DNA of 64,000 nt from the NCBI RefSeq assembly GCF_003704095.1, contig NW_020847344.1, positions 186,001 through 250,000 on the forward strand, read 5' to 3'. This stretch comes from Pocillopora damicornis. Taxonomy: Eukaryota. This document shows positions 2,151-23,100 of the stretch, one piece after another. A program made the position numbers. How positions within the stretch are numbered: position 1 is the first letter of the stretch; every line of letters begins with the position of its first letter.

Positions 2151-5100
2151 TTATTAAATGCTCATACTGTGCTTTCTGCTAAAGCATCTCAGTAAACCCA
2201 TGTATCTGATGAGCAAATTCCTTTTTGCCAGTCAAGTTTACATCACACAGAATCAAAAGTACCCTTCCTTGCTTCAGCCCTATAAGACATTGGAGATTTA
2301 CCTTCTAAGAGTTTAACCCACAAGAAACTAGTAAGTGAACAATAGAATTGACTTCAGTGTCAACACATTTTTGACAAAAAATCAGCTTCATCTATAACAT
2401 TGTAACACATCTAGAATAATCCAAGATGATGAATCCCCCAAACTTAACAACTTGATACTGATTGTCCACACTGCCTTACTGTAGCCACCTTGAAATATGA
2501 CCAAGCCCCCGAACACACCCCCATGTTCGTTTACTATGTCGGCAACCAAAACACAAACCTCCGACACCGGCGAACTTGCCAAAAGCACACACTCTTTGTC
2601 CTTTGCTATCCACCATTTTTTCGTAATCAACTATTCGGATGTTCTGCCAGAAAGAAGGGATTAATCCAGACAATCGAGAAAATTTTCATACAAAAATGCA
2701 ACAAAACTGCGAGGTGTGAAAATCATTATACACGTGGCGCGAAAGCGAAGAGCAACAAACGACTCTCTTTCAAAGGTGGTAAAACAATTGATGGATCTAA
2801 GAAGACAAATAATTTACAAATTTGAAAAGCAAATTTCTCAAATTGATTTTGCGATGACTGTGTGTGTACAGTTCCATTAAAATCACGTTTAATTTGATCC
2901 GTGGGTTACAAACGTAGGCGATCGAAAGTTACGCTTGGTCGAGCCATGTTCGAATCAAACTCAATTAGATTTCATCAAAACTGTGATAAATCCCTATAAG
3001 ACTTCAATTACAGCTTAGAAAACGAAAATATTCTTACCTTTTCAAGCATTGCATCGAGTAGTGGCATATTCGCCTCTTGGGCCTTGATCGTATGAGAGAA
3101 GAAAGCATAAGTCTTGTCTGGAATTAACAGATCAATGGGGACAGCTTTCACGCCGATAATCAGCGAGGCAGGACTTAAATCTTCTGTTATGACTGCTCCT
3201 GCTCGCTCGTATTCATCCATCGTGTATGCTCGTCTTGTCGAAGGCTGTACAAGAACCTTGATTCCTTTATGTGCAAGTTCTGCGACATGCGAAGGTGCTA
3301 TGGGTGCTCGTCTCTCCCATACATTTATGTCTTCTCTTCTAATCGCCATAACTCGCTCTCCATTGCCAGTTGACAGAGATTTTCGTTGCAAAGGTAACAA
3401 ATTACGTGACAATATTCCATGGCTATTTATTCTAAGTGCTTTCACAGTCCACATATTCAAATCCCTGGAAGGAAATCCTGCGATGAATTGATGTAGTATT
3501 TCCACCGGTTTGACGTATTGGCGGGTGATCAATTCAATGGCGTACTGTCCTCAGGGAGGGGAGATAAAAGAGATGATTGTGAGGCGCAAGATGATTGGTC
3601 ATTTTTGGAAGCCGTGGAAAGCATGTGCTATAACTTTGAACATCATGACTAGAACCACGGACTCTAACCTGGACTATGGAGTGTACTTATAGTACGTTCT
3701 TTCACAATTATTGAGTTCCATTTGAACGAATATACATCATCTTAATATGACTATCGGGTGTAGGGACGCATGGGACTCGAATTAACGAACAAGTCTCAAG
3801 TGGGTACGTATGACATCAAGCGTCTTCTTTTCTTTAGAGCTGCACCAAGGACAGTGAACAGAAAGCACAGATAAATAAAAAAGGAAAAGGAGAAAAAAGG
3901 GAACTGATGGTATGGTAGCGCTCGTGCCACTGACAAGTGACCCTCACCTGTCGGTTGTTAACTGAAGAACCCTTTTGCGGGATACCTTGCGGGATGAATA
4001 TGGCGTGTCAGCCAGGGTGCATTAGAAAAAAAAAAGAAAATTTACAAATATGAATATTCCGAGATGACATCCTGAGCCAGTAAAGGACTTGTTATGGAGA
4101 ACACCGCCACCAGCCCAAATATTAGGGGTTTCTGGAAGAAAAAGCTGAAATTTACTCAATTAAGTAATAAAATATAAGCAGTCGTAGCCCAAAATTCTTA
4201 GCTTTATTGAATAACTTTTGGAAATATACTCAGTTCTTCCGGTTATATAAACTGACCATCTATTTAATCATTGTACGCAGTAATAGTCTAGTAAACCCTC
4301 TAAGAACTCAGAAAATATCTTAATCGTTATAAAATTATAGCTAAAAACAGAGATATCGATACATTACAAAACTGAGCATTCTTTTGCTAGAACCAAGAAA
4401 AATTTAACCATAATTTATTTTCCATTGTACATATTTTGGTATGCAATAATTCAATAACACTTCTTCATGACAGAGAAGATTCGATCGCTGATACCAAAAT
4501 AGTTAGCAATGTTACTTTTCAGAAAGACTTGTGGATAAAAAGTTTTCCCTTAGTTTATACAAAGCCATGTGCTTCTGATGGCTAAATGATACCTACATAT
4601 TTCCCAATATTTGCATCAGTTGTTGTAAGCTCATCTTATCATCGTCACCATGTATAACTTAGTATTTCCTTTTAACACTGTATATATATTCGTATTTCTC
4701 CATTGATAGATTTTTCCCCACTAATTTTTGAAAATGAAGAAGAACCTGCCGCATGCAAGAGTCTGGGCCATATCTATTCTCGATTCCATGTCAAAGTGTT
4801 GATGGCGCCATTTACACCCAGGGAAAATTTCCTGTCCTTCCTGTGGCTCTTATACTTTCAAATACATCATCTCTTCCAATGATTCCACCGAAAATATAAG
4901 GCTAGAAATCAAAACAGCTTCCATCAGTAAAAAAATACTGGTATTAAAAAACAAAAGATGTTTTCAGTCTTCTTGAGATTAATTAGCAAATGTACGGTGC
5001 AGTTTTCCTTACGCTCTCTAATGTTATGAAACCTTGCCGCTTTGATAAAAGAATGAAGAACGTGAAAAAGCAGTCCCAACATAATCGACTCAGCTGAGGT

Positions 5101-20100: not shown

Positions 20101-23100
20101 CTTTCATCATTTTTCTCTGCAAATATAATGTTGTGGAAATGAAACAGAAAAATAGAGAAATGAAAGGAGAGAAAATGTAATAAACATAATACTATATCAG
20201 ATGAATTTAAAATGATGAGGAAATGAATTGTAATGAATCATCATAGCTAAAGAACTGACTAGTTTTGGCAACCTTCTGTTATTTAACTCACTTAATATTT
20301 TGCAATAATGAAATGACCCAGCCATTAGAACTTGAACTTCAGTGACTCTAAGCTGGGGAAGCATTGAAAAGACAGTAGCAATGGCTCTGTAGCAAATAAT
20401 ATCAGCAAAAACATGACCAGATCCAAGATAGGCTAGCAGGTAGGTTCCATTTTCAAGAAAGGAAAGTTGTATTTTTCTGGCTTATTTTCCCAATTTATTT
20501 TATTTTATGAACAGAATGGAAGTCATTTCACTCTCGCGTTTATGGGGTGAACTTTTACACTCTTCCCAATCTGTGTGAGATATCCCCAGAGGGGCCGTCA
20601 CCCTGCTGTCACTTGGGAGATGGTTTTACAGACCTTGTTATTATTAAAGACTGCTCAAGACTTCAATTAAAATCACATATTCAGCGAAACTTCAATTACA
20701 AAGACCAGGTTTGTTTGTTATGATGATTATATGTGATGGGCTTAATAGCATCTGCTGCTTAATAAATGAGGCAACTTTCCTTGCGAGAATGAAGATTGGT
20801 TAAGGAAAAACGGTAGAAATCAATCCTTTAAATGGGGATCATAAAACAGAGAAAGAGGAAAAAGAAAATAAAAGTAGGGACACCAGAAGAGGCATTCCTC
20901 GCACTTCAAACACAGTAGTCCTGCTTTTTATCCATTTGCTCTGATTAAAATTACAACAAAAATTTAGAATTTCTATTGAAATACTGTTTAATTCATCACA
21001 TTGGTCTTCACCCCTTTTGTTATTTACCCACTCTCTTTGCAGTTTGCATTTGGCTTCATTGAAACACACCGTGTCAAAGAATGTCATATTCATGCTTGTG
21101 ACAAGAGTGGTGTCCCTGTGAGTGGTACAGATAGTCTCTTGCATGGTGGTAGCTATAGAGGAAGGAGGAATCCAAAGGAGCAACCAGTTGGTGTATGGAA
21201 TGTAGATGGTGAAGTGCTCAGGCAGGCATCTCTATCACTCAGGTATCCAACAGTGTAACTCATAACAGGTTTTTTTTTGTTTTGCATAGCATTACTTGAA
21301 GTGAACTAGACTCTCCAAAGCTACATGTACTCTTGAGTCCAGCTTGAATGAATTTAGGCATTCAATGGTTGAAATGCACAAGGCCTATTCAACTTTTGTG
21401 GCTGTAGGAAAAAAAGAACGGTGCACCAAAAAATGGAGAAATTTTTTTAAAATTAAATTACTTACCTATTTTTCATTGGTTTCTAGAGTTCACAGACAAA
21501 TTGTAACTATATTTGGAAGTGGTATAGAGGATGTCTCGCAACAAAAGTGTCGCTTCCTGAAATAACAAAGCATTGGTAAAATTTAAAGGAGCTTATTTCT
21601 AGTATGTAATTCTTGTATCGTTCATAATGCATTTGCATGTGATGGATACAGGATGAACATCAAGGTCTACTGGATAGGGAACAAAATCCCTCTGAACAAA
21701 TGGCTATCCAGCAGACATTGCTATTTGTTTAAACCTCACATGCAACATTTGTAAAGTTTATCCTACTAAGTTGAAAGTTATGTAAGATTCAAGCATTGAA
21801 AACATCTTCTGGCCTCTACTAAGTTAAAGGTTATCTGACATTAGCCAGAATTTAGATTGGAACACCAGACATTACTTTTCTCATACCCACGCGAGGAACG
21901 TTTCTCAAAATATTTATATCAGTGTTGGTGTTTTTTAGAAGATTCTTTCTCCATTATCTGTTGGAGTTTTGATTCTTTTTTAATATAAAGTATAATTGAA
22001 CTATCTCCCTAAATTTATATTATTTATGTATTTATTTATTTGTCAAATGATTTAATTAAATTGCGTTGGCCCCATAGTGGTGACAATGGGTGACCATTTA
22101 TCAAAATTATCATTTTCTGAAAATAATGTAACGCAAAATGCCATTAAGTTTATTGAGGACTCGTAATATGAAGGAAGTATCGTCCGAAGTAGATTTTGAT
22201 GAATTTACTACGCGTTTACGAAGTGAACTCCAATGTACTGTATTACTGATCAGCGGTCAGCTATAGTTGCTGAAATATTACCGCGTGGTTTAGGTGTCCA
22301 CTTTGTAAAGTTTCCACTGTATGAATTTAGCAATAAAACGTCGTGAAAATAACATTGATAAATTGAAACTCCTTTAACCCCTTAGACAGCAAGTATAGTG
22401 TCGCCCATTAATTATGACCCTGAGTGCAACTAGAGTCGATTAGTTGGGAACAAATACGTTCCGCGATACAAGCCCCAGTGTTTATATCGCTGGATTGCTT
22501 GTTGCGGATAGCTGTAGTATTACAAATGGTTTGTAAACGGTACATGGTCTTACTGACATGATTGTGGATACAAAACTAGATTCCAGTTTGGAAGGAAAAA
22601 AGCAAACTCCGTTTATACGAACCTACTGCCTGGTAAACATCGTGTCATGTGCATTCTAACATTTTCAAGACTATTCAGTTCACTAATTCAGTGTGGCTTA
22701 AGAGATTTCAAAGACTTTTTTTCTCTCTAAGTGATCATCATTTTTTTTTCAAACAGTTTTTACACTGAAAGGAGCATCCTAAGGATTGGATTAATAAATA
22801 TAAATATAAATCAAGTAAGAACTTGAAGAAAAGTTAGCCTCGTCTGCAAAAACGTGTATGATTGACACACAAACGTAAAGGAAGGTGTGTCGTCAGCAAG
22901 GGAACTAAAGGAGAGCAGTTATTCTAGGACTGTGGGTAACTCACCCTTTGGCATATACCTTGTCAGATATGGTTTCCTCAATCTTCCTTCTTCAAGGTAG
23001 AAACGTCTGAAACTAGGGTATATTAGTCCTATATTTGAGGACCTTGCGTCGTGTGTTGACAGCTTTTAAGTTGAAATTACTGAATCAGTTACATCAAAAA

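What the first reader, a model, noticed from the sequence alone, without database searches (positions are those of the whole stretch)
4812..21565. GRAMD4-CERK gene pair: possible ancient microsynteny, head-to-head here
Seen: GRAMD4 (-) and CERK (+) are immediate neighbours with ATGs 500 bp apart. Recalled knowledge: human GRAMD4 and CERK are also adjacent on 22q13.31, but convergent. Inference: the adjacency may date to the cnidarian-bilaterian ancestor with a local inversion in one lineage. That would hint at a functional link between a GRAM-domain membrane protein and ceramide-1-phosphate synthesis, co-regulated here by one promoter.
[Added by the scan's program, not by the reader: the finding's places include an assembly gap (unread letters, written N; its length is only estimated) at 5480 to 5619, 6692 to 7160, 13035 to 13058. 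Whether the letters on both sides are continuous or in frame is not known: test that first.]
Basis: partly seen in the sequence, partly recalled or inferred. Interest (0 to 1): 0.65.

Follow-up and report, generated by a model that had tools for sequence, protein, structure and literature searches.

The report
Coral GRAMD4 beside CERKL-like kinase gene
Two ordinary coral genes, GRAMD4 and a ceramide-kinase-family gene, do sit head to head 500 bases apart, but the kinase is the coral's divergent CERKL-like copy and not its true CERK, so the likeness to the human GRAMD4-CERK neighbourhood is not a simple conserved gene pair.

Summary
A GRAMD4 gene runs on the minus strand (ATG 13566, stop 4814-4812). 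A ceramide-kinase-family gene runs on the plus strand (ATG 14067, stop 21563-21565). The spacer is 500 bases. Exons are 98-99% identical to Pocillopora verrucosa proteins, so the window is a pocilloporid coral, not human. Two of the three gaps lie in introns and hide no residues. The gap at 6692-7160 hides about 31 GRAMD4 residues.

The coral has a second kinase paralogue (P0022), which is not in the window. That paralogue groups with all bilaterian CERKs. The window's type groups with lamprey CERKL (99-100 of 100 and 50 of 50 bootstraps). The window's type lacks an invariant ATP-loop glycine and a one-residue insertion of the CERK clade. It carries a basic cluster where human CERKL has its nuclear signal.

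Synteny in other lineages, transcription starts and co-expression could not be tested. No eukaryote genome collection was available. The spacer's composition is ordinary, and the window holds a second, tighter head-to-head pair. I located no virus-like domain.

The parts
4812..13566 (-). GRAMD4 orthologue, coding span from ATG (13566) to stop (4814-4812). In-frame blocks: 13566-13111, 12608-12474, 11851-11618, 11350-11276, 10851-10762, 10367-10341, 10156-10067, 9961-9869, 9668-9624, 9293-9222, 8534-8493, 8270-8163, 7814-7749, [about 31 residues unread], 6600-6475, 6024-5938, 5836-5753, 5304-5236, 4901-4815
   Evidence: 649 of 662 residues identical to P0015. In Pfam, P0015 has a GRAM domain at 575-684 and membrane-hairpin-type matches at 327-499. 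The nearest named Atlas clusters are 'GRAM domain-containing protein 4' of chordates, score 0.97.
4815..6600 (-). Exons that carry the GRAM domain (P0015 residues 575-684 fall in blocks 6600-6475, 6024-5938, 5836-5753, 5304-5236, 4901-4815)
   Evidence: Taken singly these exons are too short to reach Pfam (0 families).
6692..7160 (.). Assembly gap inside GRAMD4. It is the only gap that matters: P0015 residues 512-542, a linker between the membrane region and the GRAM domain, have no counterpart in the read letters
   Evidence: Not filled.
5480..5619 (.). Assembly gap in a GRAMD4 intron. No residue is missing (644 to 645 is contiguous)
13035..13058 (.). Assembly gap in GRAMD4 intron 1. No residue is missing (152 to 153 is contiguous)
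7256..7674 (.). 39-bp minisatellite, 10.7 copies, 96% matches, in the intron next to the large gap
13567..14066 (.). Spacer between the two start codons. It presumably holds both core promoters (inferred from geometry only)
   Evidence: GC 0.396; CpG observed/expected 0.67, equalled or exceeded by 42% of 562 windows of 500 bp; no TATA or CCAAT match; one GC-box-like site and one CCGCCAT site (motif names recalled). No Pfam domain in its ORFs.
14067..21565 (+). Ceramide-kinase-family gene of the divergent, CERKL-like type ('type A'), from ATG to stop. Blocks: 14067-14189, 15307-15552, 16220-16348, 17189-17254, 17726-17887, (18460-18540 optional), 19128-19298, 19581-19661, 19865-19918, 20514-20708, 21043-21243, 21488-21562; stop 21563-21565
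   Evidence: 496 of 501 residues identical to P0001. Pfam on single exons is colinear: PH_CERK (exon 2), DAGK_cat (exons 3 and 5), CERK_C (exons 7, 10, 11).
15307..15552 (+). Exon 2: PH-domain strand and a basic cluster (A-K-R-R) aligned with the CERKL nuclear localisation signal site
   Evidence: The human CERKL signal KLKRR is from PMC2576480 (passages seen).
16220..16348 (+). Exon 3: ATP-loop region reading N-P-R-S-K-K-G. It lacks the second glycine, which is G in 108 of 108 CERK-clade proteins and 3 of 3 coral type B
   Evidence: Outgroup SPHK1 has G-G.
17726..17887 (+). Exon 5: G-G-D-G catalytic motif kept, followed by I-V where the CERK clade has M-F
   Evidence: (DAGK_cat E=3.3e-12, 46.5 bits, above the 23.6 cut-off)
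18460..18540 (+). Optional 27-codon exon inside the kinase domain. Present in Acropora P0003, absent from P. verrucosa isoform X3 (P0001). The frame is open in the window
19581..19918 (+). Exons 8 and 9, which between them carry the CxxxCxxC cysteine motif
   Evidence: The motif is kept in 8-9 of 9 type A, 3 of 3 type B and 106-108 of 108 CERK-clade proteins, and in 0 of 3 lamprey CERKL.

Best explanation
The locus holds two ordinary, apparently intact host genes of a pocilloporid stony coral, transcribed away from each other from a 500-bp spacer. One is the GRAMD4 orthologue, a membrane protein with a C-terminal GRAM domain. The other belongs to the ceramide kinase family (PH_CERK + DAGK_cat + CERK_C), but it is the divergent 'type A' paralogue. 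Type A split from the CERK lineage before cnidarians and bilaterians parted. Its nearest named relative here is lamprey CERKL. The coral's true CERK orthologue ('type B', P0022) lies elsewhere. Type A keeps the GGDG motif and the CxxxCxxC cysteines. It has lost a glycine of the ATP loop that never varies in the CERK clade, and it has a basic cluster at the site of the CERKL nuclear signal. I infer that it works more like CERKL, for which no ceramide kinase activity was found, than like a dedicated ceramide-1-phosphate synthase. Both core promoters must lie in or very near the 500-bp spacer, so some shared regulation is likely by geometry. That is inferred, not shown. The coral and human neighbourhoods resemble each other at family level only: in coral the neighbour is the CERKL-like paralogue, in human it is CERK. 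I take the resemblance as most likely independent: coincidence, perhaps helped by old linkage on one ancestral chromosome. I do not take it as one conserved orthologous pair with an inversion.
For: Gene models and spacing. Domains. GRAMD4 identity. A second coral paralogue exists (P0022, 33% identical to P0001) and is not in the window (it hits only the same exons, at 29-57% identity). Trees: with 40 proteins, the split {6 type A + 3 lamprey CERKL} | {2 type B + 29 bilaterian CERK} appears in 99-100 of 100 bootstraps under 4 distance corrections and 2 trimmings, and 990-1033 of 1044 quartets favour it. With 123 proteins, {9 type A + 3 CERKL} | {111 others} appears in 50 of 50. Signature columns: 11 with A=L and B=K, 0 with A=B and L=K, 3 with A=K and B=L, out of 150 usable columns. 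Motifs across 123 proteins. Basic cluster (at least 3 K/R in 4 columns): 5 of 6 type A, 2 of 2 CERKL, 0 of 3 type B, 1 of 108 CERK. Polarity from solved SPHK1 chains: SPHK1 has the G-G loop and the shorter S-L-A-W-G-F stretch, so the F after GGDG-M and the one-residue insertion are derived characters shared by type B and CERK, and type A lacks them. CERKL showed no kinase activity: PMC2628313, passages seen. Head-to-head layout is common in the window itself: a second pair has start codons 131 bp apart, 44953(-) and 45084(+). The spacer's composition is ordinary.
Against: By raw similarity, taken exon by exon, the window's kinase scores higher against the CERK clade than against lamprey CERKL. 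The summed best bits are 492 (best of 106 bilaterian CERK-clade proteins (the 108 less 2 type A that the script put in the wrong group) plus the type B protein P0041), 409 (type B) and 318 (CERKL). Mean identity of type A is 34% to CERK, 38% to type B and 30% to CERKL. Type A keeps the CxxxCxxC motif that lamprey CERKL lacks. The trees are neighbour-joining only, have no outgroup in the alignment, and CERKL is represented by three lamprey sequences. Type A and CERKL are the two longest branches, so long-branch attraction and convergent relaxation cannot be excluded. Several A=L states (for example E-V-V-N-G-L) are also in SPHK1, so they are ancestral and say nothing about a type A + CERKL clade. 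PMC2628313 states that CERKL may be confined to vertebrates, with no evidence of it in amphioxus, fly or worm (passage seen). Two unrelated families being neighbours in both coral and human is unlikely for a pair named in advance, so coincidence is not a comfortable explanation either. Transcription starts, 5' untranslated exons and expression are unknown.
Confidence: 0.55

Rival explanations
1. Relic of a three-gene ancestral block. In the cnidarian-bilaterian ancestor GRAMD4 lay beside a tandem pair of ceramide-kinase paralogues, CERK and the CERKL-like type A. Corals kept GRAMD4 with type A and moved or lost the link to CERK. Vertebrates kept GRAMD4 with CERK and moved CERKL away. The adjacency is then truly ancient, but the two surviving pairs are not orthologous.
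For: New duplicates are usually born in tandem (general knowledge). The duplication predates the cnidarian-bilaterian split by the trees and derived characters. GRAMD4 has a neighbour of the same two-member family in both species (PMC10048319 table). That is improbable by chance for a pair named in advance.
Against: No tandem kinase pair is seen. Type B is not in the 64-kb window, and the other neighbour of GRAMD4 here is an AASS-like gene. The model needs two independent break-ups. No intermediate lineage could be examined.
Confidence: 0.2
2. The kinase is a (co-)orthologue of CERK. Type A would be a fast-evolving cnidarian-specific duplicate, and its grouping with CERKL an artefact. GRAMD4-CERK would then be one conserved microsyntenic pair since the cnidarian-bilaterian ancestor, inverted in one lineage.
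For: Full CERK-type architecture and the CxxxCxxC motif. Higher raw similarity to CERK and to type B than to CERKL. Type A and CERKL are the long branches. The literature view is that CERKL is vertebrate-only (PMC2628313).
Against: 0 of 150 usable columns show A=B with L=K, against 11 with A=L and B=K. The AB|LK grouping is favoured by 0-7 of 1044 quartets and appears in 0 of 100 bootstraps in every setting. Type B and bilaterian CERK share derived states that type A lacks: F after GGDG-M in 111 of 111, and a one-residue insertion, both polarised by SPHK1. The orientation differs between coral and human, contrary to what co-regulated conserved pairs tend to show (PMC3514665).
Confidence: 0.15
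3. Assembly artefact. The adjacency or one of the gene models would be produced by mis-joining at the gaps.
For: There are three gaps inside GRAMD4, and a minisatellite abuts the largest one.
Against: No gap lies between the two genes or in the kinase gene: 13059-21565 is continuous read sequence. Exon order and strand are colinear with P0015 across all three gaps, and residue numbers are contiguous across two of them.
Confidence: 0.03

Closest known systems
Human GRAMD4-CERK neighbours on 22q13.31
   Same: In both species a GRAMD4 gene lies directly beside a member of the ceramide kinase family. The human order '...CELSR1, GRAMD4, CERK, TBC1D22A' comes from a table in PMC10048319.
   Different: The coral neighbour is the type A (CERKL-like) paralogue, not the CERK orthologue. 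The coral pair is head to head with 500 bp between the ATGs. The human pair is said to be convergent (recalled, not checked by any search).
CERKL (ceramide kinase-like protein; human retinal dystrophy gene)
   Same: Same side of the family tree as lamprey CERKL. The invariant second glycine of the N-P-x-G-G loop is lost, V replaces F after GGDG, and the stretch R-F-x-F-S and the C-terminal V-T-x-[FY]-G are shared. A basic cluster sits at the site of the human KLKRR nuclear signal (PMC2576480). An alternatively used exon lies inside the kinase domain (CERKL isoforms in PMC2628313).
   Different: Type A keeps the CxxxCxxC motif and a recognisable PH_CERK domain, which lamprey CERKL does not show. 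It is only about 30% identical to lamprey CERKL. No gnathostome CERKL was compared. The literature holds CERKL to be vertebrate-only (PMC2628313).
CERK (ceramide kinase proper)
   Same: Domain architecture PH_CERK + DAGK_cat + CERK_C, the GGDG motif and the CxxxCxxC motif.
   Different: Type A falls outside the clade that joins coral type B with 108 bilaterian CERKs. It lacks that clade's invariant G-G loop, M-F after GGDG, R-Y-S-V, F-A-R-G-I-E and the one-residue insertion.
Conserved ancient microsyntenic pairs with bidirectional promoters (e.g. HSPE1-HSPD1; Irimia et al. 2012, PMC3514665)
   Same: A head-to-head pair of unrelated genes with a spacer under 1 kb. The paper calls that a signature of bidirectional promoters (passages seen).
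   Different: Such pairs are defined by orthologous adjacency in many phyla and tend to keep the 5'-5' orientation. Here the partners are not orthologous between coral and human, the orientation differs, and no other lineage was examined. GRAMD4 and CERK each occur 0 times in that paper's main text.

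Membership tests
GRAMD4 | C-terminal GRAM domain | tested here: met
   P0015 has Pfam GRAM at 575-684, E=4.2e-08, 33.5 bits, above the 23.6 cut-off. The window blocks that cover 575-584 and 588-684 are 93-100% identical per block. Single exons alone gave 0 Pfam families.
GRAMD4 | Membrane-hairpin region upstream of the GRAM domain | tested here: inconclusive
   The matches are at or below cut-off: PRT_C 28.1 bits (equal to its cut-off), RHD_RETREG1-3 22 bits, Pex24p 21.2 bits, all at P0015 327-499. 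No transmembrane predictor was available.
GRAMD4 | Closest named relatives are GRAMD4 of other animals | tested here: met
   NCBI names P0015 'GRAM domain-containing protein 4-like'. The top Atlas clusters are 'GRAM domain-containing protein (4)' of chordates, score 0.97. There are 364 relatives at E<=0.001 in the representative library, all unnamed.
GRAMD4 | Reciprocal best hit and gene tree with human GRAMD4 | not tested
Ceramide kinase family (CERK + CERKL) | PH_CERK + DAGK_cat + CERK_C architecture, colinear | tested here: met
   Exon by exon: PH_CERK on exon 2 (E=0.0052), DAGK_cat on exons 3 (0.036) and 5 (3.3e-12), CERK_C on exons 7, 10 and 11 at profile positions 1-38, 72-137 and 134-196. 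Only exon 5 passes a gathering score on its own. P0001 passes all three.
   SPHK1 chains match only the catalytic core, 78 bits. CERK-family proteins match at 257-292 bits over 72-99% of the query. The CERK_C and PH_CERK domains are present.
CERK proper (orthologue of bilaterian CERK) | Falls in the clade of bilaterian CERKs | tested here: not met
   Coral type B does; type A does not. The split is found in 99-100 of 100 bootstraps in each of 8 settings and in 50 of 50 with 123 proteins. The trees are neighbour-joining only.
CERK proper (orthologue of bilaterian CERK) | Clade-invariant residues: second G of the N-P-x-G-G loop, F after GGDG-M, A-R in F-A-R-G-I-E, one-residue insertion in the R-Y-S-V-S-L-L-G-Y-G-F stretch | tested here: not met
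   G in 108 of 108 and F in 108 of 108 CERK-clade proteins, and in 3 of 3 type B. Type A has K in 5 of 6 and V in 8 of 9, G-S instead of A-R, and no insertion. Polarity from SPHK1.
CERK proper (orthologue of bilaterian CERK) | CxxxCxxC cysteine motif (its role in CERK function is recalled from the literature, not read here) | tested here: met
   The window reads C-R-I-G-C-E-V-C across exons 8 and 9. The motif is kept in 8-9 of 9 type A proteins.
CERKL | Groups with named CERKL in a tree | tested here: inconclusive
   Type A groups with 3 lamprey 'ceramide kinase-like protein' sequences. These are the two long branches, there is no outgroup in the tree, and no gnathostome CERKL was available.
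CERKL | Basic nuclear-localisation cluster in the PH region (human 102-KLKRR-106, PMC2576480) | tested here: met
   The window's exon 2 has A-K-R-R in the aligned columns. At least 3 of 4 columns are basic in 5 of 6 type A, 2 of 2 lamprey CERKL, 0 of 3 type B and 1 of 108 CERK. Function as a signal is not tested.
CERKL | No ceramide kinase activity | not testable with these tools
   Only the sequence hint of the lost ATP-loop glycine. Human CERKL was inactive in the assays of PMC2628313.
Conserved ancient microsyntenic pair | Both partners orthologous between the compared species | tested here: not met
   GRAMD4 probably is. The kinase is not: type A in coral against CERK in human.
Conserved ancient microsyntenic pair | Adjacency in several independent phyla | not testable with these tools
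   The only genome collection open holds bacteria and archaea, and the protein searches give no genomic context. The literature searches found no statement.
Bidirectional-promoter gene pair | Opposite strands with starts less than 1 kb apart | tested here: met
   For the start codons: 13566(-) and 14067(+). Transcription starts are unknown.
Bidirectional-promoter gene pair | Divergent transcription starts inside the spacer, and co-expression | not testable with these tools
   No transcript or expression data. The spacer's composition is unremarkable.

The most novel reading that the evidence does not exclude
The CERKL lineage is not a vertebrate invention. It dates to before the cnidarian-bilaterian split, and anthozoan 'type A' kinases are its cnidarian members. 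GRAMD4 lay beside an ancestral CERK/CERKL tandem, so that corals (GRAMD4 + CERKL-like) and vertebrates (GRAMD4 + CERK) each keep one half of a three-gene block some 600 million years old.
Probability: 0.15. Interest if true: 0.55.

Novelty: new member of a known kind. Interest (0 to 1): 0.3.

Why it matters
As posed, the finding is a small point of comparative genomics: one more candidate for deep microsynteny. The check shows why such candidates need a gene tree first. The coral neighbour of GRAMD4 is the wrong paralogue for a one-to-one comparison with human.

The by-product may matter more. Anthozoans carry a second ceramide-kinase-family gene that shares diagnostic residues with CERKL, a human retinal-dystrophy gene of still unclear biochemical function. 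One paper read here supposed CERKL to be vertebrate-only (PMC2628313). If the link holds, CERKL-type proteins could be studied in simple animals. The lost ATP-loop glycine would then be an ancient feature and not a vertebrate novelty.

The proposed functional link between a GRAM-domain membrane protein and ceramide-1-phosphate synthesis has no support beyond adjacency.

Tried and rejected
1. Pfam on single GRAMD4 exons found no GRAM domain: 0 relevant families among 26 minus-strand ORFs. The exons are too short, so the domain was placed through P0015 instead.

It was redone with faster code.

I did not repeat it and used the Atlas instead.

4. There is no solved CERK or CERKL structure to compare with. 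The best PDB hits are SPHK1, AGK and DgkB. They were used only to polarise characters.

5. Literature:
- GRAMD4 + CERK: 17 papers, 16 listed. By their titles and abstract starts they are human 22q13 deletion, association and expression studies. I read passages of one.
- CERKL + ceramide kinase + phylogenetic + invertebrates: 0 papers.
- CERKL / CERK / paralog / evolution: 457 papers with at least 3 of the 4 terms, 20 listed. The one read (PMC3650063, passages) covers vertebrate synteny of CERKL only.
- Ceramide kinase / CERKL / cnidaria: the 12 listed papers all have 0 occurrences of 'cnidaria'.
- Irimia et al. 2012: 0 mentions of either gene in the main text. Its pair list is in supplements, which are closed.

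6. Search for the virus-like stretch announced by the operators:
- No reverse transcriptase, integrase, capsid or envelope family at E<=0.001 among 134 ORFs of at least 62 aa outside the finding.
- None at E<=0.001 among 76 ORFs, and none at E<=0.05 among 39 ORFs, inside or beside the finding.
- No long direct repeat pair that could be LTRs, and no Rfam match.
- The only virus-reminiscent item is a pair of CCHC zinc knuckles fused to a TatD DNase ORF.
- I did not locate the stretch. I repaired, joined and wrote out nothing.

7. Assembly artefact was rejected as the cause of the adjacency, because there is no gap from 13059 to 21565.

8. A CpG-island-like or motif-rich promoter was rejected, because the spacer is compositionally ordinary.

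9. The bacterial promoter/terminator scanner, tRNA finder, structure prediction and fold search were not used. They do not bear on the question.

Full report
WHAT THE WINDOW IS

The window has 36.5% G+C and is gene-dense, with short exons. The exons in the finding are 93-100% identical, block by block, to proteins of the stony coral Pocillopora verrucosa. So this is a pocilloporid coral scaffold. Nothing in it was taken for human.

I built and searched no joined model. Where a whole protein was needed I used the database proteins P0001, P0003, P0015 and P0022 as stand-ins.

THE OBSERVATION

tblastn with P0015 ('GRAM domain-containing protein 4-like isoform X1', 703 aa) lays 18 in-frame blocks on the minus strand, from 13566 (Met1) to 4815.
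- 649 of 662 aligned residues are identical.
- A stop codon follows at 4814-4812. P. verrucosa has Gln there and runs 7 residues further.

tblastn with P0001 ('ceramide kinase-like isoform X3', 502 aa) lays 11 blocks on the plus strand, from 14067 (Met1) to 21562.
- 496 of 501 residues are identical, and a stop follows at 21563-21565.
- An extra 27-codon exon at 18460-18540 is used in Acropora P0003 (24 of 27 identical) but not in isoform X3.

The finding's ends, 4812 and 21565, are therefore the last bases of the two stop codons. The start codons are 501 bp apart. None of 76 further ORFs in the region, on either strand, has a Pfam match.

THE GAPS

- The gaps at 13035-13058 and 5480-5619 lie in introns. 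The residue numbers of P0015 run on without a break across each of them (152/153 and 644/645).
- The gap at 6692-7160 lies between residues 511 and 543.
- The 31 residues in between have no match in the read letters. They are a linker between the membrane region and the GRAM domain.
- A 39-bp minisatellite (7256-7674, 10.7 copies) abuts this gap.
- I filled nothing.
- From 13059 to 21565 there is no gap. The adjacency itself is continuous read sequence.

GENE IDENTITIES

GRAMD4:
- P0015 has a GRAM domain at 575-684, above Pfam's cut-off.
- It also has weak matches to membrane-hairpin families at 327-499.
- Its nearest named Atlas clusters are chordate 'GRAM domain-containing protein 4', score 0.97.
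- A reciprocal test against human GRAMD4 was not possible.

Kinase:
- Single exons hit PH_CERK, DAGK_cat and CERK_C in colinear order.
- P0001 passes all three gathering scores.
- Sphingosine kinase is only a distant relative: 78 bits over the catalytic core, against 257-292 bits for non-cnidarian CERK-family proteins.

THE PARALOGY PROBLEM

The search with P0001 returned a second P. verrucosa protein, P0022 (538 aa). It is also called 'ceramide kinase-like' and is only 33% identical to P0001. Against the window it hits nothing but the same exons, at 29-57% identity. It is therefore encoded elsewhere.

I call the window's kind type A and P0022's kind type B. In the groups below, 'A' is type A, 'B' is type B, 'L' is lamprey CERKL and 'K' is the bilaterian CERKs.

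Tree of 40 proteins:
- The set held 6 type A (including a partial Nematostella protein), 2 type B, 3 lamprey 'ceramide kinase-like protein' (CERKL) and 29 bilaterian CERKs.
- Neighbour-joining puts type B with the bilaterian CERKs and type A with lamprey CERKL.
- The split {A+L}|{B+K} appears in 99-100 of 100 bootstraps under four distance corrections and two trimmings.
- 990-1033 of 1044 quartets favour it. 0-7 favour {A+B}|{L+K}.

Tree of all 123 family members in hand:
- The split {9 type A + 3 CERKL}|{111 others, including 3 type B} appears in 50 of 50 bootstraps.

Signature columns, among 150 columns with a clear majority in all four groups:
- 11 show A=L and B=K.
- 0 show A=B and L=K.
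- 3 show A=K and B=L.

DIAGNOSTIC RESIDUES

- ATP loop. The second glycine of the N-P-x-G-G loop is G in 108 of 108 CERK-clade proteins and 3 of 3 type B. It is K in type A (5 of the 6 that include the region) and H in lamprey CERKL. Solved human SPHK1 chains have G-G, so the loss is derived.
- After G-G-D-G. The CERK clade and type B have M-F (F in 111 of 111). Type A has I-V and CERKL has T-V.
- Insertion. CERK and type B share a one-residue insertion in the stretch R-Y-S-V-S-L-L-G-Y-G-F, relative to type A, CERKL and SPHK1.
- C-terminus. F-A-R-G-I-E is the CERK and type B state (A in 106 and R in 106 of 108). Type A has F-G-S-G-I-E.
- Basic cluster. At the columns aligned with the human CERKL nuclear signal KLKRR (PMC2576480, passages seen), at least 3 of 4 residues are basic in 5 of 6 type A, 2 of 2 CERKL, 0 of 3 type B and 1 of 108 CERK.

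The characters that type B and CERK share, polarised by SPHK1, do not depend on branch lengths. They are my main reason to hold that type A split off before cnidarians and bilaterians parted.

EVIDENCE THE OTHER WAY

- Type A keeps the CxxxCxxC motif (8-9 of 9), which lamprey CERKL lacks (0 of 3).
- Type A keeps a recognisable PH_CERK domain.
- Exon by exon, the window scores higher against CERK-clade proteins than against lamprey CERKL. Summed best bits are 492 (best of 106 bilaterian CERK-clade proteins (the 108 less 2 type A that the script put in the wrong group) plus the type B protein P0041), 409 (type B) and 318 (CERKL).
- Some A=L states, such as E-V-V-N-G-L, are also in SPHK1 and are therefore ancestral.
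- Type A and CERKL are the longest branches. The trees are distance trees without an outgroup, and CERKL is lamprey only.
- Tuson et al. 2009 (PMC2628313, passages seen) report no CERKL in amphioxus, fly or worm, and no kinase activity for human CERKL.

My weighting:
- 'Type A is not the CERK orthologue' is well supported.
- 'Type A is the CERKL orthologue' is likely but open.

CONSEQUENCE FOR THE MICROSYNTENY IDEA

Human GRAMD4 and CERK are consecutive in a 22q13.31 gene list (PMC10048319, table passage). Their orientation is recalled only.

The coral neighbour is the other paralogue, so the two adjacencies are not one conserved orthologous pair. Three readings remain:
1. Coincidence, perhaps helped by old linkage. 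I think this most likely.
2. A relic of an ancestral block of GRAMD4 plus a kinase tandem.

No tool here holds eukaryote genomes, so adjacency in other lineages is untested. The literature searches found no statement on it. The pair list of Irimia et al. 2012 is in closed supplements.

THE SHARED-PROMOTER IDEA

The geometry fits: the starts are less than 1 kb apart on opposite strands. The spacer itself is ordinary:
- G+C is 0.396.
- CpG observed/expected is 0.67, which 42% of 562 windows equal or exceed.
- There is no TATA or CCAAT match.

The same window holds a tighter head-to-head pair, an Acatn/MFS-like gene with its ATG at 44953(-) and a P450 gene with its ATG at 45084(+). Those starts were not checked against relatives. 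The layout is therefore common here.

In Irimia et al. (passages seen):
- 54.8% of conserved pairs are 5'-5', against 26.7% of controls.
- That orientation is preferentially kept.

A pair that is head to head in coral and convergent in human does not behave like a promoter-constrained pair. Transcription starts and co-expression remain untested.

SURROUNDINGS

- AASS-like gene (minus strand), downstream of GRAMD4.
- A mitochondrial-type P450 (plus strand), from about 23.7 kb.
- DUF885 exons (minus strand, 33154-33793).
- An intronless ORF with two CCHC zinc knuckles fused to a TatD DNase (41165-42214).
- An Acatn/MFS transporter (minus strand).
- A second P450 (plus strand).
- A gap-rich stretch (49.5-54.8 kb).
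- A rhodopsin-type receptor (55143-56195, minus strand).

THE ANNOUNCED VIRUS-LIKE STRETCH

- No reverse transcriptase, integrase, capsid or envelope family appeared among the 249 ORFs scanned: 39 at E<=0.05, 134 at E<=0.001 and 76 at E<=0.001.
- There is no LTR-like repeat pair and no Rfam match.
- I did not locate the stretch, and I repaired, joined and wrote out nothing.

VERDICT

The by-product is a possible pre-bilaterian CERKL-like lineage.

Noticed in passing
window 7256-7674: 39-bp minisatellite (10.7 copies, 96% matches) in a GRAMD4 intron, directly beside the 469-base gap at 6692-7160. It makes a spurious 211-aa ORF on the minus strand (7173-7808), and it is a plausible reason why the assembly broke there.
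   Followed up: partly
window 4812-4814: The GRAMD4 stop codon sits where the P. verrucosa protein P0015 has Gln. The window's protein ends 7 residues earlier, and the 6 codons after the stop still match P0015.
   Followed up: partly
window 18460-18540: A 27-codon exon inside the kinase domain is open and conserved (24 of 27 identical to Acropora) but skipped in P. verrucosa isoform X3. Human CERKL also has isoforms that differ inside the kinase domain (PMC2628313).
   Followed up: partly
window 41165-42214 (+): Single uninterrupted 349-aa ORF with two CCHC zinc knuckles (zf-CCHC, E=2.8e-13) fused in front of a complete TatD DNase domain (E=1.4e-59). It has no introns in an otherwise intron-rich region. 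It is the only virus-reminiscent feature I saw.
   Followed up: no
window 33154-33793 (-): Two ORFs match Pfam DUF885, 'Bacterial protein of unknown function' (E=4.3e-16 and 2.7e-05), at different profile positions, as exons of one gene would.
   Followed up: no
window 44953 (-) and 45084 (+): A second head-to-head pair: an Acatn/MFS-type transporter and a cytochrome P450, with candidate start codons only 131 bp apart. The P450 N-terminus resembles that of the P450 that starts near 23.7 kb, so the window holds two paralogous P450 genes.
   Followed up: partly
window 10527-10706 and 54951-55130: 180-nt dispersed repeat in inverted orientation, 79% complementary. One copy is in a GRAMD4 intron, the other beside the receptor gene.
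   Followed up: no
window 58001-59400: A run of 500-bp windows with CpG observed/expected of 1.3-1.47, the highest in the window (whole window 0.58), at ordinary G+C. It overlaps a 145-aa ORF with no Pfam match.
   Followed up: no
window 49583-54803: Gap-rich stretch with 14 runs of N. ORFs there (for example 52865-53308, minus strand) are interrupted by short N runs and could not be judged.
   Followed up: no
Protein P0022 (not in the window): P. verrucosa encodes a second ceramide-kinase-family protein that is the true CERK-clade member. Both carry the same NCBI name, 'ceramide kinase-like', which hides the paralogy.
   Followed up: yes
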